In this document: one piece after another, positions 33,001 to 39,000 of the stretch
Position numbering within the stretch: position 1 is the first letter of the stretch
Layout of the letters: each line of letters begins with the position of its first letter
NCBI RefSeq assembly: GCF_021869535.1
Contig: NW_026262686.1
Location: 1,860,001 to 1,924,000 of the forward strand
Length of the DNA stretch: 64,000 nt
Source: Mytilus californianus
Taxonomy: Eukaryota
Direction of reading: 5' to 3'
Made by a program: the position numbers

Positions 33001-36000
33001 TTAACAGTGGCAATAGTTAGCAATAGTGTCATTTCTAGCTTCTATTGGCCACATAGGTTCACTGAAAATATAAACAGTGGCAAGAGTTAGCAATAGTGTC
33101 ATTTCTAGCTTCTATTGGACACATATAGGTTCACTGAAAATATAAACAGTGGCAAGAGTTAGCAATAGTGTCATTTCTAGCCTCTATGGGCCACATAGGT
33201 TCACTGAAAATATAAACAGTGGCGAGAGTTAGCAATAGTGTCATTTCTAGCTTCTATTGGCCACATAGGTTCATTGAAAATATAAACAGTGGCAAGAGTT
33301 AGCAATAGTGTCATTTCTAGCTTCTATTGGACACATATAGGTTCATTGAAAATATAAACAGTGGCAAAAGTTAGCAATAGTGTAATTTCTAGCTTCTATT
33401 GGCCACATAGGTTCACTGAAAATATAAACAGTGGCAAGAGTTAGCAATAGTGTCATTTCTAGCTTCTATTGGACACATATAGGTTCATTGAAAATATAAA
33501 TAGTGGCAAGAGTTAGCAATAGTGTCATTTCTAACCTCTATTGGCCACATAGGTTCACTGAAAATATAAACAGTGGAGAGAGTTAGCAATAGTGTCATTT
33601 CTAGCTTCTATTGGACACATATAGGTTCACTGAAAATATAAACAGTGGCAAAAGTTAGCAATAGTGTCATTTCTAGCTTCTATTGGACACATATAGGTTC
33701 ATTGAAAATATAAACAGTGGCAAGAGTTAGCAATAGTGTCATTTCTAGCTTCTATTGGACACATATAGGTTCATTGAAAATATAAACAGTAGCAAGAGTT
33801 AGCAATAGTGTCATTTCTAGCTTCTATTGGACACATATAGGTTCATTGAAAATATAAACAGTGGCAAGAGTTAGCAATAGTGTCATTTCTAGCTTCTATT
33901 GGCCACATAGGTTCACTGAAAATATAAACAGTGGCAAGAGTTAGCAATAGTGTCATTTCTAGCTTCTATTGGCCACATAGGTTCACTAAAAATATATACA
34001 GTGGCAAGAGTTAGCAATAGTGTCATTTCTAGCTTCTATTGGCCACATATAGGTTCATTGAAAATATAAACAGTGGCAAGAGTTAGCAATAGTGTCATTT
34101 CTAGCTTATATTGGACACATATAGGTTCATTGAAAATATAAACAGTGGCAAGAGTTAGCAATAGTGTCATTTCTAGCTTCTATTGGACACATATAGGTTC
34201 ATTGAAAATATAAACAGTGGCAAGAGTTAGCAATAGTGTCATTTCTAGCTTCTATTGGACACATATAGGTTCATTGAAAATATAAACAGTGGCAAGAGTT
34301 AGCAATAATGTCATTTCTAGCTTCTATTGGACACATATAGGTTCATTGAAAATATAAACAGTGGCAAGAGTTAGCAATAGTGTAATTTCTAGCTTCTATT
34401 GGACACATATAGGTTCATTGAAAATATAAACAGTGGCAAGAGTTAGCAATAGTGTCATTTCTAGCTTCTATTGGCCACATAGGTTCACTGAAAATATAAA
34501 CAGTGGCAAGAGTTAGCAATAGTGTCATTTCTAGCTTCTATTGGACACATATAGGTTCACTGAAAATATAAACAGTGGCAAGAGTTAGCAATAGTGTCAT
34601 TTCTAGCTTCTATTGGACACATATAGGTTCACTGAAAATATAAACAGTGGCAAGAGTTAGCAATAGTGTCATTTCTAGCTTCTATTGGCCACATAGGTTC
34701 ACTGAAAATATAAACAGTGGCAAGAGTTAGCAATAGTGTAATTCCTATCTTCTATTAGCCACTTTATCATAAAATATTCAAAATGCTCTATAACCAAAAG
34801 GTGCCAATGTTAATAGTGAATCCTAACTTTCTTGATCAGTGATGGCGGCCAAAGTAAATTATTCTAAAACTGGACCAAAATTGACATTATTACACAAACT
34901 GTGCATAATTAAGGGATCAAGACTTTGTTATTTATTATGTGAGGTGCCAAAAAGAAGTAATTTAGTATTATTACTAATATCACAACTACTTGTGAATTTA
35001 TAGTATTTTGGCCTGCTTTAAAAAAACATTAAATTATCAATGCCAATTTTAGCCCTTCATGAACCTAATCCTTTAGAGCATACTACATGTAATATAAAGA
35101 AAGATAATCCAAATGTTTTCACAAATATTTGCTAGAGTTTATTTTTTGTTACAAAAAAGTTTGGTTTGTCTGTACAAAGGATCAAAATGTCAAAGAAACC
35201 AGAATTTGGAGTAAAAGTCTAAAATTGTCTAAACCTGTGGCTGAAAGATTAAATACAATCTCTATATACAGAGTACATGAGTACAAACATTAAAGCTCAA
35301 AACGTGGCTGAAGGATTAAATACAATCTCTTTACTCTGAGTACATGAGTACAAACCTTAAAGCTCCAACCGTGGCTAAAGGATCAAATACAATCTCTTTA
35401 CATGGGGTTCATGAGTACATAACTTAAAGCTCCAACTGTGGCTGAAGGATTAAATACAATCTCTATACATGGGGTTCATGAGTACATAACTTAAAGCTCC
35501 AACTGTGGCTGAAGTATTAAATACATTCTCTATACACTGAGTACATGAGTACATAACTTAAAACTCCAACCGTGGCTGAAGGATTAAATACAATCTCTAT
35601 ACATGGGGTTCATGAGTACATAACTTAAATTCCAACCGTGGCTGAAGGATTAAATACAATCTCTATACACTGAGTGCATGAGTACATACTTTAAATCTCT
35701 TACCGTGACTGAAGGATTAAATACAATCTCTATACACTGAGTGCATGAGTACATACTTTAAAGCTCCAACCGTGGCTGAAGGATTAAATACAATCTCTAT
35801 ACATGGGGTTCATGAGTACATAACTTAAAATTCATACCGTGGCTGAAGGATTAAATACAATCTCTATACACTGAGTGCAAGAGTACATACTTTAAAGCTC
35901 TTACCGTGACTGAAGGATTAAATACAATCTCTATACATGGGGTACATGAGTACATAACTTAAAGCTCCAACCGTGGCTGAAGAATTAAATACAATCTCTT

Positions 36001-39000
36001 TACACTGAGTGCATGAGTACATACTTTAAAGCTCTTACTGTGACTGAAGGATTAAAAACAATCTCTATATATTGAGTACATGATATAAAAAAGAAGATGT
36101 GGTATGATTGCCAATGAGACAACTCTCCACTAGAGACCAAATGACACAGAAATTAAGTACATACCTTAAAGTTCCAACTGTGGCTGAAGGATTAAAAACA
36201 ATCTCTATACACTGAGTACATGAGTATATAACTTAAAGCTCCAACAGTAGCTGAAGGATTAAATACAATCTCTATACACTGAGAACATGAGTACATACCT
36301 TAAAGCTCCAACCGTGGCTGAAGGATTAAATACAATCTCTATACACTGAGTACATGAGTACATACCTTAAAGCTCCATCCATGGCTGAAGGATTAAATAC
36401 AGTCTCTATACACTGAGTACATGAGTACATACCTTTAAGCTCTAACCGTGGCTGAAGGATTAAATACAATCTCTATACACAAGAGTACATGAGTACATAC
36501 CCCAAAGCTCCAACCGTGGCTGAAGGATTAAATACAATCTGTATACACTGAGTACATGAGTACATACCTCAAAGCTCCAACGGTGGCTGAAGGATTGAAT
36601 ACAATCTCTATACACTGAGTACATGAGTACATACCTCAAAGCTCCAACCGTGGCTGAAAGGATTAAATACAATCTCTATACACTGAGTACATGAGTACAT
36701 ACCTCAAAGCTCCAACCGTGGCTGAAGGATTAAATACAATCTCTGCACCATTAATACCATACATCATCCAATTCAAGGGATGATGTCGTCCATAACAAAT
36801 GTTTATACCAATTTTACCTGTAAACAATCAAAATCATACATAATTTTTCATGTTAAAAATACAAATCATATATAATTTTACCTGTAAACAATTACAAATT
36901 GTACATAATTCAACCTGTAAACAATTACAAATTGTAGATAATTTTACTTGTCATTTCTTATAAACAATTACAAATTGTGTATTATTTTACCTGTTGCTAA
37001 TGAAAGTAAATCCAGTGAAGGGTTTTGGATACATAACATTTATAAAGTGATAGTGTTTGAGACCTGCATTGCAATGTGGTATGGGACAAAAACGCTACAT
37101 TAGGCTTAAATTAAAATATTGTTTGTTTGCAGTTTACCGACCGACCCTCGAAAATCCGCCCGACTGTGAAAATTTTATTGCTTTTAATTTGAAGAAATTA
37201 TTTTTTATTTTTCTATTGACACAATCCGGAACTTCTGGTCGTTTCTGGAATTGATTTAAAGTCTGGGTCGATTACACGTTTCAAGTTCGGTTTTTCTTAC
37301 CTTCTTGTCATGCGTATATGGGACCGTTTAATAATAAAGCACATGGAGATTGTTTACAGGTATCGATGAAGACATGGAGGAGTACTTTGCGCTGTCGTTT
37401 TCTGTCAATTTTAAAACAAATAACAACCAAAAAAGTTTAATAGTAAACTGTTTTTACAGATTCAGACAGATATCATTGATGATTTGAGAACGCATGATGC
37501 AGCGGATATTCATAAAACCGACACGATAACCATTTCAATCTCAAACAGATCAGGTACAGAATCTCTTGAGCCTGACTTTATGGAACCAATATCAGTGGTT
37601 AAAAAAATTTGACAGCAGCCTGAAGTATGCCATAGTTTCTATAAAACGTTGTGAAGACAACAAGGATGAAACCACTTCTCCATGACTTCATGGATACCTG
37701 TAAACACGCCAGGAAGGGCGCATTTGAAATTTATAATCGATAGACAATGCCAAATCTATAAGAAGCCACAGAAACTACACAAAGATGTAAAGAAAATGAT
37801 TAGTTGGCTTGTAAAAATAAATATACTTTCTCTATGTTAAATCTATCTTCTATTGCAATGAGTATGCTCCTTTAGGATAAGGGGAGCTACCCTACTCATT
37901 GCAATTCTTCTCCCTCTTACAATATTAAATATACCCAAACAGTGTGGCTTGTGTGAATTGAATTAAAACATGTCCTTAGGAGCTATGCTGCCAATTTTTT
38001 ATGCAGTCAAAACATTTCAGTACAGACCATTTACTTTTAAAGGAGTGCTATTGATTTCACCCTGAAGTCTAAGATTTTTTTGGTTTTAATTAAAGCCTGA
38101 TCACATCAAAATATCTTTCAAAATATAACCTTATTACATATAATTAAATATTGTTAGATTTATGAAAACAGTCCGATGTCAAATATATTTTTTCAAGTTT
38201 CCTTTTTTTTTTAATTGAGAAAGATTCAATGGTTAATTTTTTTTATTGATAACACTCTTACATTGTCTTATGAATCTTTGATATCTACATTTTCCTAATG
38301 AAAATACTCTACTCATGAAAACTTTCTAGTAAAGAAGCATATGTCAGTGAACAATTTCTTTAAAACAATTCTAGTCATTCCTTGTTTATAAGATCTTATA
38401 AGTGTTCCAGTACTAGTATTTAATAATGTCATAAATTGGATAATCACACCATGTTTATATAGTTTCAATTTTGGTTGAAAAGTTTTTATCTGAAAATGCC
38501 TTATCGTGTACTTGGCTGGGGGACTATGGTAAGAACCAAGTAACGAGTCTACAAATAAACTGTACTTCACACTTTACTTCTTTTAATTTTTAATACAAGG
38601 CCATGCTACTGCACTGGCAGACGACAACTAACTTAATAATTAATAGCTAAAAACATGTTTCACCTTTTCCGACATAAGAGATAAATTGTGTGAGGCAGTC
38701 CCGATAACCAGAAGACCCAAAATAGGAATATAACAGCCTGTTCATTTCATGTTGGTTTTCAGTGTTTGTTGTTTTAAAAAAAAATTCTTCACAATAAACT
38801 TGGTTTGTGTAACTGCTTGTTTAAACTTCATTTTGGCTGATAAAATAAAATATTTTTCCTACCTACCGACCCTTCAGTCTGAAGGTACAGTCGGAAAACT
38901 GCAAACAAACATATTTTTAAGGTTGGCCTTATAAAAGATGACATTTTGAATTTCAGATCTGAACATTGTTAAAACACAAAATTGATCTAAAACAGTAGAG

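What the first reader, a model, noticed from the sequence alone, without database searches (positions are those of the whole stretch)
35230..36745. Exon 8 donor array shows a decay gradient away from the real exon
Seen: the 67-bp unit is 42 nt of exon plus 25 nt of intron. Copies next to the exon (about 36290-36700) keep plus-strand catacc, i.e. G|gtatg. Distal copies drift to catactt or cataactt (GT lost) and gain a ggggttcat variant. Read-through to donor 2 meets TAA in frame. Intron 8 thus has a donor array at one end and the exon 9 acceptor array at the other, together covering about 4 of its 4.4 kb. Inference: new copies arise at, or are homogenised with, the exon-proximal end.
Basis: partly seen in the sequence, partly recalled or inferred. 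Interest (0 to 1): 0.68.

Follow-up and report, generated by a model that had tools for sequence, protein, structure and literature searches.

The report
Splice-donor minisatellite in mussel gene intron
A mussel housekeeping gene carries about 20 tandem copies of the end of exon 8 plus its splice donor inside the next intron, part of a wider habit of this gene to "stutter" its exon edges into its introns, and the copies form layers of different history and not a smooth decay.

Summary
The window is mussel (Mytilus) DNA, not human. It holds a 14-exon beta-ureidopropionase (UPB1) gene on the minus strand. The array is real: 67-bp units (42 nt of exon 8 plus 25 nt of intron 8), the real junction plus 20 full decoys and one truncated copy. 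An in-frame TAA follows the true donor. The donor and acceptor arrays fill 89% of the 4,431-nt intron 8.

Divergence from the exon copy does rise with distance (Spearman 0.61, p 0.004). But it is a step (mean 3.4 versus 6.9 differences) with no trend in the distal block. Private changes do not rise with distance. The trend comes from two distal subfamilies that were amplified locally. Only copies 1-3 group with the exon.

"GT lost" is half wrong: 13 of 20 decoys keep GT.

Other junction arrays of the same gene show no gradient (exon 9 acceptor, exon 5 and exon 2 donors), whereas the stop-codon array does.

Seven of 18 tandem arrays in the gene start inside an exon (1.25 expected).

Closest known: the human F7 IVS7 VNTR and chicken "exon stuttering". 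I read it as a tolerated junction-spanning minisatellite.

The parts
36703..36817 (-). Exon 8 of the beta-ureidopropionase (UPB1) gene, 115 nt, holding the NICYGRHH active-site stretch. The donor GT is at 36702-36701.
36678..36744 (-). Copy c0: the real junction unit (last 42 nt of exon 8 plus the first 25 nt of intron 8).
35232..36744 (-). The whole 67-bp donor array: c0, 20 full decoys (c1-c20) and a truncated c21.
36475..36677 (-). Decoys c1-c3, the 'exon group'. They share the exon's G in TTTGAG/TTTGGG and group with c0.
36663..36665 (-). In-frame TAA, reached if the true donor is skipped.
36067..36474 (-). Decoys c4-c8. Each lies 2-6 changes from the exon copy, mostly private. All but c7 keep AAG|GTATGT.
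36083..36155 (.). 73-bp insertion inside c8. Its 39-nt core recurs at 5 other places in the window, so it is a fragment of a dispersed repeat.
35264..36066 (-). Distal block c9-c20. It holds subfamily A (c9, c11, c14, with c13; AAA|GTATGT), subfamily B (c10, c12, c15, c17, c18; AAG|TTATGT and the CCCCAT variant), c16, and the degenerate end copies c19 and c20.
35234..35263 (-). Truncated last copy c21 (about 30 nt of the exon-derived part), followed by unique intron.
34757..35231 (-). Unique spacer of intron 8 between the two arrays.
32240..34756 (-). Exon 9 acceptor array: 70/72-bp units (about 24 nt of intron end plus about 46 nt of exon 9 start), 34 decoys plus the real copy. AG is kept in 17 of 34 decoys.
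32190..32271 (-). Exon 9.
36810..36951 (-). Exon 8 acceptor mini-array, 33-bp units, 4.4 copies (cag|GTAAAAT decoys upstream of exon 8).
42826..44316 (-). Exon 5 donor array, 77/78-bp units, 18 decoys, all with GT.
48585..48865 (-). Exon 2 donor array, 49-bp units, 5 decoys.
45404..45733 (-). Exon 4 donor array, units of about 41 bp, 3 decoys found.
20583..21140 (-). Array of 30-bp units seeded by the end of the coding sequence (stop codon) plus the start of the 3' flank, 17 further copies.

Best explanation
The feature is a locally born intronic minisatellite.

Origin and growth (inferred): a tandem duplication that straddled the exon 8/intron 8 boundary of a mussel UPB1 gene was then expanded by replication slippage and unequal exchange into about 21 units.

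Why it is tolerated (inferred from established knowledge of splicing, not shown here): only the first unit is preceded by the rest of exon 8 and its acceptor. Exon definition and 5'-to-3' choice of the first donor therefore keep the true site in use. Use of a decoy donor would add a 67/68-nt out-of-frame piece with a TAA, a substrate for nonsense-mediated decay.

Shown here: the array has a layered history and not a smooth decay.
- An exon group: c0-c3.
- A set of individually diverged units: c4-c8.
- A distal block built by local re-amplification of two variant units, A and B.
- Degenerate end copies.

The rise of divergence with distance is the by-product of that layering. A 73-bp repeat insertion marks the border of the two blocks and may hinder exchange between them (inferred).

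The array is one of seven exon-edge-seeded arrays in this gene. It belongs to a regional or genomic tendency that resembles the 'exon stuttering' described in chicken.
For: - Array and unit anatomy.
- Host gene and exon map. The 14 exons sum to 1,155 nt in one open frame with one terminal stop.
- In-frame TAA.
- The exon copy equals the consensus of the 20 decoys at all but one site.
- Step pattern and no distal trend.
- Private versus shared changes.
- Clades c0-c3 (90/91), A (98/95) and B (97/94).
- Copies of the junction occur only in the adjoining intron. Of 27 junction probes, 7 have repeated junction-covering copies and 20 are single.
- 7 of 18 arrays in the gene have an end inside an exon, against 1.25 expected; 1e-4 of 20,000 random placements reach 7.
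- Exon-derived and intron-derived parts of the decoys have diverged alike (65 differences over 840 sites against 45 over 500), as expected for unconstrained copies.
- No Rfam family matches in 32000-37200.
- A 1,792-nt contig in the protein set encodes a full 384-aa Mytilus-like protein with the normal exon 8/9 join (P0006).
- In another Mytilus assembly the gene model reads through three extra in-frame exon 5 units, so such arrays are not peculiar to this assembly (P0007).
- A human precedent shows that identical pseudo-donors downstream of the true one stay silent (PMC1557585, abstract).
Against: - No RNA data for this locus, so which donor is used and whether decoys are silent is inferred.
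- Seven of the 8 decoys nearest the exon keep a donor as good as the real one (7 of 9 matches to CAG|GTAAGT). This could mean some constraint or simply youth.
- The enrichment of arrays at exon edges is not explained by random slippage alone.
- The gene was picked because it looked odd, so the enrichment may not hold genome-wide.
- The counts behind the layers are small (67-nt units). Only 2 of 17 inner branches of the tree reach the starred threshold, and 12 are drawn as unsupported.
- Copies are not independent, so the p-values are rough.
Confidence: 0.72

Rival explanations
1. The exon copy is the master: new units are born at the exon end, or are converted by it, and are pushed outward, so age and decay rise with distance.
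For: - c0-c3 share the exon-specific G and form a clade.
- Overall Spearman is 0.61, and 0.77 (p 0.025) within c1-c8.
- The full G|GTATG is kept in 7 of 8 proximal and 0 of 12 distal decoys.
- The stop-codon array shows the same polarity.
- Deeper in intron 5, a more diverged 67-bp array may derive from the exon 5 donor unit (z 4.2, 3 of 300 shuffles as high).
Against: - Private changes do not rise with distance (rho -0.18).
- Distal subfamilies A and B were amplified in place.
- c13 and c16, deep in the array, are only 3 changes from the exon.
- There is no gradient in the exon 9 acceptor, exon 5 donor or exon 2 donor arrays. In the exon 2 array the nearest decoy is among the most diverged (8 changes, exceeded only by the end copy), and in the exon 5 array the exon is an outlier.
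Confidence: 0.2
2. The decoy donors are functional. The array is kept by selection as a sink for U1 snRNP, or as a switch to unproductive splicing that tunes UPB1 output.
For: - Seven of 8 proximal decoys keep donors equal in strength to the real one.
- All 18 decoys of the exon 5 array keep GT.
- Arrays sit at several junctions of the same gene.
Against: - 7 of 20 decoys here have lost GT, and 17 of 34 decoy acceptors of exon 9 have lost AG.
- Exon-derived and intron-derived parts have diverged alike.
- There is no RNA pairing between donor-array and acceptor-array units beyond shuffles (96 and 192 of 500 shuffles are as low).
- No known RNA family matches.
- The human F7 pseudo-sites are silent passengers (PMC1557585, abstract).
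Confidence: 0.06
3. Assembly artefact: a short duplication blown up into an array by mis-assembly.
For: Tandem arrays make up 32% of the window, a setting in which assemblers err. No reads could be inspected.
Against: - Units differ from one another in a structured way (clades, an insertion, a truncated end), which assembly noise does not make.
- An independent Mytilus gene model carries extra exon 5 units.
Confidence: 0.02

Closest known systems
Human F7 intron 7 (IVS7) 37-bp VNTR (Borensztajn et al. 2006, PMC1557585; abstract and outline read)
   Same: It is a minisatellite whose first unit spans an exon/intron boundary, so the true donor is followed by a row of pseudo-donors of the same sequence. 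There the most upstream site is chosen.
   Different: - Here the unit is 67 bp, with 20 decoys split into diverged subfamilies, one third of which have lost GT.
- The same intron also carries an acceptor array at its far end.
- Splicing and copy-number polymorphism are untested here.
- The host is a mollusc.
'Sequence stuttering' / 'exon stuttering' of genes on chicken dot chromosomes (PMC12954441; passages, abstract, section 7 and the Discussion read)
   Same: - Introns are filled with local imperfect tandem repeats of tens to hundreds of bases.
- In some introns the lateral part of an exon, with its donor or acceptor, is copied through the adjoining intron.
- The source lies at the exon border.
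- The exons themselves stay intact.
- The paper gives 1-44 copies and exon parts of 20-187 bp. The arrays here fall in that range.
   Different: - The paper ties the process to GC-rich, recombination-rich dot chromosomes without interspersed repeats. This window is 33.5% G+C and carries a LINE-like ORF and other dispersed repeats.
- Length variation among individuals, a defining trait there, could not be tested.
- The paper reports it for birds (and, as data not shown, gerbil genes), not for invertebrates.
Intron gain by tandem duplication of an AGGT-containing segment (Rogers model; Hellsten et al. 2011, PMC3265369, seen only as a search listing and the start of the abstract)
   Same: A tandem duplication yields repeated splice signals, and the outermost ones are used, so the duplicate is spliced out.
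   Different: No new intron is made here. The duplicates lie in an existing intron and lengthen it.
Polarity in human minisatellites such as MS32, where new variants cluster at one end of the array (recalled from memory, no call)
   Different: Here only c1-c3 point to the exon end. The most recent amplification seen is in the distal block.

Membership tests
Junction-spanning VNTR of the F7 IVS7 type | Tandem array of units of tens of bp inside an intron | tested here: met
   TRF: period 67, 22.5 copies, score 2022.
Junction-spanning VNTR of the F7 IVS7 type | The first unit spans the exon/intron boundary, so the true donor is followed by pseudo-donors | tested here: met
   c0 is 42 nt of exon 8 plus 25 nt of intron. 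13 of 20 decoys keep GT, and c1 and c2 have the identical 9-nt site.
Junction-spanning VNTR of the F7 IVS7 type | Pseudo-donors are silent and the most upstream site is used | not testable with these tools
   No RNA data. Indirect only: a 1,792-nt contig encodes a Mytilus-like protein with the normal exon 8/9 join.
Junction-spanning VNTR of the F7 IVS7 type | Copy number varies among individuals | not testable with these tools
   No mussel genome or read collection was on hand.
Sequence / exon stuttering (chicken dot chromosomes) | Introns heavily covered by local imperfect tandem repeats | tested here: met
   89% of intron 8, 36% of the gene and 32% of the window are covered.
Sequence / exon stuttering (chicken dot chromosomes) | The exon edge with its splice site is copied into the adjoining intron only, with the source at the exon border | tested here: met
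   7 of 27 junction probes have repeated junction-covering copies, all in the adjoining intron or flank and on the same strand.
Sequence / exon stuttering (chicken dot chromosomes) | Extensive length variation within the species | not testable with these tools
   Only one haplotype was available.
Sequence / exon stuttering (chicken dot chromosomes) | GC-rich setting devoid of interspersed repeats | tested here: not met
   33.5% G+C. A LINE-like ORF with RVT_1 and an endonuclease domain. A dispersed-repeat fragment lies inside the array.
Intron gain by tandem duplication | The duplication creates an intron where there was none | tested here: not met
   The copies lie downstream of an existing donor inside intron 8. 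The exon 8/9 join is the normal one in Mytilus proteins.
Beta-ureidopropionase, CN_hydrolase family (host gene) | Sequence match of the exon 8 peptide, including the catalytic-cysteine stretch | tested here: met
   PDB 6ftq residues 233-269, E 8.2e-19. Pfam PF00795, 27.8 bits against a cut-off of 23.2. That the cysteine is catalytic is recalled, not tested.

The most novel reading that the evidence does not exclude
Exon-edge-seeded minisatellite expansion ('exon stuttering') is a systematic process in mussel genomes and does not depend on GC-richness. Exon borders would be preferred birthplaces, or preferred survivors, of tandem arrays. This could be because a mutational process is tied to splice junctions or exon chromatin. 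It could also be because the selected exon copy keeps re-seeding its array, as c0-c3 hint. If so, a sizeable share of mussel intron length and of its well-known structural variation would come from this process, and decoy splice sites would be a routine load on splicing.
Probability: 0.3. Interest if true: 0.7.

Novelty: new member of a known kind. Interest (0 to 1): 0.45.

Why it matters
For the single array, little changes: it is a tolerated by-product, and the gradient idea holds only for the three nearest copies.

The setting is of more interest. One ordinary metabolic gene has 6 of its 26 splice junctions, plus its stop codon, copied into arrays of up to 35 units.
- This gives a natural test bed for how the splicing machinery picks the outermost of many identical sites, at donors and at acceptors.
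- It shows that the process just described in chicken is not bound to GC-rich microchromosomes.
- It is a practical hazard for annotation: one public Mytilus model of this gene reads through three extra in-frame units of the exon 5 array.

Tried and rejected
- a fuzzy anchor that allowed indels gave shifted unit borders. It was replaced by the substitution-only anchor.
- my own tiling aligner was faulty (nonsense difference counts). It was dropped for BLAST-anchored units.
- a strong duplex between two-unit pieces of the donor and acceptor arrays (1 of 300 shuffles as low) was an artefact of shuffling dimers. With single units it vanished (96 and 192 of 500 shuffles as low). The idea that the two arrays pair to bring the splice sites together is rejected.
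- no Rfam family in 32000-37200 at E up to 0.1.
- a protein search with a 71-aa ORF read across c1-c3 found no candidate, so the array could not be traced in other assemblies that way.
- I tested whether the 11 arrays of the gene that do not touch an exon derive from a flanking junction (22 tests).
  - Only 47807-47901 (exon 2 donor, z 29.7) is clear.
  - 41565-42318, 46584-46628, 46684-47634 and 28797-29133 reach z 3.8-6.3 (1-3 of 300 shuffles as high). With 22 tests they are only leads.
- The genome-contig collection holds bacteria and archaea only, so it was not used. No other mussel DNA could therefore be compared.
- Structure prediction, fold search and complex prediction do not bear on a non-coding array and were not run.
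- Supplementary files of the chicken paper (its list of stuttering genes) were not opened.
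Full report
**What the window is.**
The 64-kb window has no N and is 33.5% G+C. An exon-sized peptide from 48837-49004 (minus strand) finds beta-ureidopropionase-like proteins of Mytilus edulis (96% identity) and M. trossulus. These are 5 hits among 18 candidates. I therefore take the window for mussel DNA, not human, and the rule on human contigs did not come into play.

Mapping the M. edulis protein P0002 on the window by tblastn gives 14 coding exons on the minus strand, from 51811 to the stop at 21121. The exons sum to 1,155 nt in one open frame. 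Its 37 whole codons match solved beta-ureidopropionase structures at E 8e-19 and Pfam CN_hydrolase.

Searches with the window's own coding sequence were made exon by exon. No search or fold was made with the joined model, so its whole-length match remains unmeasured.

**The observation.**
TRF reports one array at 35232-36744: period 67, 22.5 copies, 84% matches. On the coding strand each unit is the last 42 nt of exon 8 followed by the first 25 nt of intron 8. The array holds:
- the real junction unit c0 (36744-36678),
- 20 full decoys c1-c20,
- a truncated c21.

Skipping the true donor runs into TAA at 36665-36663. Intron 8 is 4,431 nt. The donor array and the exon 9 acceptor array (32240-34756, 70/72-bp units) together cover 3,956 nt of it, 89%.

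Two points need correction:
- The plus-strand 'catactt' form is AAA|GTATGT and keeps GT. Only 'cataactt' (AAG|TTATGT) loses it. Thirteen of 20 decoys keep GT.
- Copy c8 carries a 73-bp insertion (36083-36155). Its 39-nt core recurs at five other places in the window, so it is a dispersed-repeat fragment.

**The gradient.**
Differences from the exon copy, c1 to c20, are 1, 2, 4, 3, 4, 2, 5, 6, 9, 6, 7, 10, 3, 7, 8, 3, 9, 8, 6, 7. Spearman is 0.61, p 0.004, permutation p 0.002. Its shape, however, is a step.
- Mean differences are 3.4 in c1-c8 and 6.9 in c9-c20.
- There is no trend within the distal block (rho -0.13).
- There is a trend within c1-c8 (rho 0.77, p 0.025, 8 copies).

The exon copy equals the consensus of the decoys at all but one site.

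Splitting the differences is more telling. Changes private to one copy do not rise with distance (rho -0.18). Changes shared by several copies do (rho 0.65). Private changes average 1.75 in proximal copies and 0.9 in distal ones (Mann-Whitney p 0.12).

A maximum-likelihood tree of the 21 units gives three supported groups:
- c0-c3 (90/91),
- subfamily A: c9, c11, c14 (98/95), joined by c13,
- subfamily B: c10, c12, c15, c17, c18 (97/94).

The rest is unresolved. Only 2 of 17 inner branches are starred.

The distal 'decay' is thus mostly a handful of changes that arose once in two variant units and were then multiplied in place, in a roughly alternating A/B order. It is not the slow ageing of copies born at the exon.

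The exon and c1-c3 alone carry G in TTTGAG|GT, where the 17 other decoys have A. At least one copying or conversion event therefore joined the exon to its nearest neighbours later than the origin of the rest.

**Other arrays of the same gene.**
Probes of 70 nt across each of the 26 splice junctions and the stop codon show repeated junction-covering copies for 7 of 27. Counts below include the real copy:

| Junction | Copies |
|---|---|
| exon 2 donor | 6 |
| exon 4 donor | 4 |
| exon 5 donor | 18 |
| exon 8 acceptor | 2 |
| exon 8 donor | 21 |
| exon 9 acceptor | 35 |
| stop codon | 17 |

The other 20 probes are single. All copies lie in the adjoining intron or flank, on the same strand.

The gradient is not general:
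- Exon 9 acceptor array: rho 0.01 (34 decoys; two of them were read as one row in the test), AG kept in 17 of 34.
- Exon 5 donor array: rho 0.40, p 0.10 (18 decoys). All 18 keep GT, and the exon copy differs from every decoy at two fixed sites.
- Exon 2 donor array: rho 0.05 (5 decoys). The nearest decoy has 8 changes, second only to the end copy, and lacks GT.
- Stop-codon array: rho 0.77, p 3e-4 (17 copies).

**Enrichment at exon edges.**
TRF run on the whole window gives 32 arrays covering 31.8% of it. Eighteen lie in the gene and cover 36% of it. Seven of these have an end inside an exon, against 1.25 expected from 20,000 random placements, of which a fraction of 1e-4 reach 7.

This gene was flagged because it looked odd, so the figure cannot be carried over to the genome.

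**How it most likely works.**
Shown: the anatomy, the layering and the enrichment.

Inferred:
- The founder event was a tandem duplication across the junction, grown by slippage and unequal exchange.
- The copies are harmless because only the first donor has a whole exon and an acceptor before it, and only the last acceptor of the exon 9 array has a whole exon and a donor after it. Exon definition then picks the outermost sites.
- Misuse gives a premature stop.

Three observations fit this:
- The human F7 IVS7 VNTR shows by experiment that identical pseudo-donors behind the true one stay silent (PMC1557585, abstract).
- A 1,792-nt contig that encodes a full Mytilus-like protein with the normal exon 8/9 join (P0006) fits normal splicing, though I cannot say whether that animal has the array.
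- Exon-derived and intron-derived parts of the decoys have diverged alike (7.7% and 9.0% of sites), as expected without constraint.

**Comparison with what is known.**
The nearest single-locus precedent is the F7 IVS7 VNTR.

The nearest process is 'sequence stuttering' with 'exon stuttering' on chicken dot chromosomes (PMC12954441; abstract, section 7 and the Discussion read). There, exon edges with their splice sites are copied through the adjoining intron and the source lies at the exon border. Expansions have 1-44 copies, and introns are heavily covered by local repeats. Those features are met here. Two are not settled:
- The paper's link to GC-rich regions free of interspersed repeats is not met (33.5% G+C; a LINE-like ORF at 52709-56011 with RVT_1 and endonuclease domains).
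- Variation among individuals could not be tested.

I found no report of the pattern in mussels. The library lacks most subscription journals, so this is no proof of absence.

**Cross-species hint.**
A search with two translated units of the exon 5 array finds a Mytilus coruscus UPB1 model of 444 aa that covers the query fully at 100% identity. That model contains three extra in-frame units between exon 5 and exon 6. The exon 5 array therefore exists in another assembly and has misled a gene predictor. The same trick failed for the exon 8 array (no candidate). No mussel DNA collection was available, so the orthologous intron 8 and other haplotypes stayed unchecked.

**Verdict.**
- The 'decay gradient' is a two-block, multi-layer history.
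- The inference of an exon-proximal source holds for three copies and fails for the distal half and for three sister arrays.
- The array is a new member of a known kind.
- The wider exon-edge pattern in an AT-rich invertebrate gene is the part worth following.

Noticed in passing
window 42826-44316 (minus strand): The exon 5 donor array has 78-nt units that stay in frame without stops across several copies (ORFs of up to 108 aa). A public Mytilus coruscus UPB1 model of 444 aa includes three such extra units.
   Followed up: partly
window 20583-21140 (minus strand): 30-bp units copy the last codons, the stop codon and the first bases after it, 17 further copies. Each unit also holds TTG|GTATGT, which looks like a donor, so a 3'-UTR intron is possible. 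This array shows the clearest gradient (rho 0.77).
   Followed up: partly
window 36810-36995 (minus strand): Exon 8 begins GTAAAAT right after its acceptor cag. Each decoy acceptor upstream is therefore a juxtaposed 3'/5' splice-site-like motif (cag|GTAAAAT).
   Followed up: no
window 47807-47901: Two further copies of the exon 2 donor unit lie about 1 kb into intron 2, apart from the main array at 48585-48865 (z 29.7).
   Followed up: partly
window 41565-42318: A 67-bp array deep in intron 5 aligns in part with the exon 5 donor unit and may be an older, diverged layer of that array (z 4.2, 3 of 300 shuffles as high).
   Followed up: partly
window 52709-56011 (minus strand): An open frame of 1,100 aa with reverse transcriptase and endonuclease domains (a LINE-like element), about 0.9 kb upstream of the UPB1 start codon.
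   Followed up: partly
window 1375-5334, 7652-9262, 46684-47634, 57978-58869, 59242-60701: Long tandem arrays (38 bp x 102, 56 bp x 29, 27 bp x 35, 45 bp x 20, 47 bp x 31) that I could not tie to an exon. Four lie outside the UPB1 gene. Tandem arrays make up 32% of the window.
   Followed up: no
window 36083-36155, and 28680-28718, 61154-61192, 59016-59051, 7381-7411, 6237-6261: A dispersed short repeat with a shared 39-nt core. One copy is inserted in unit c8 of the array.
   Followed up: partly
window 36678-36702 (minus strand) and each unit: The intron part of the unit itself holds an 8-nt tandem duplication (ATGTACTC twice), a sign of small-scale slippage at this spot.
   Followed up: no
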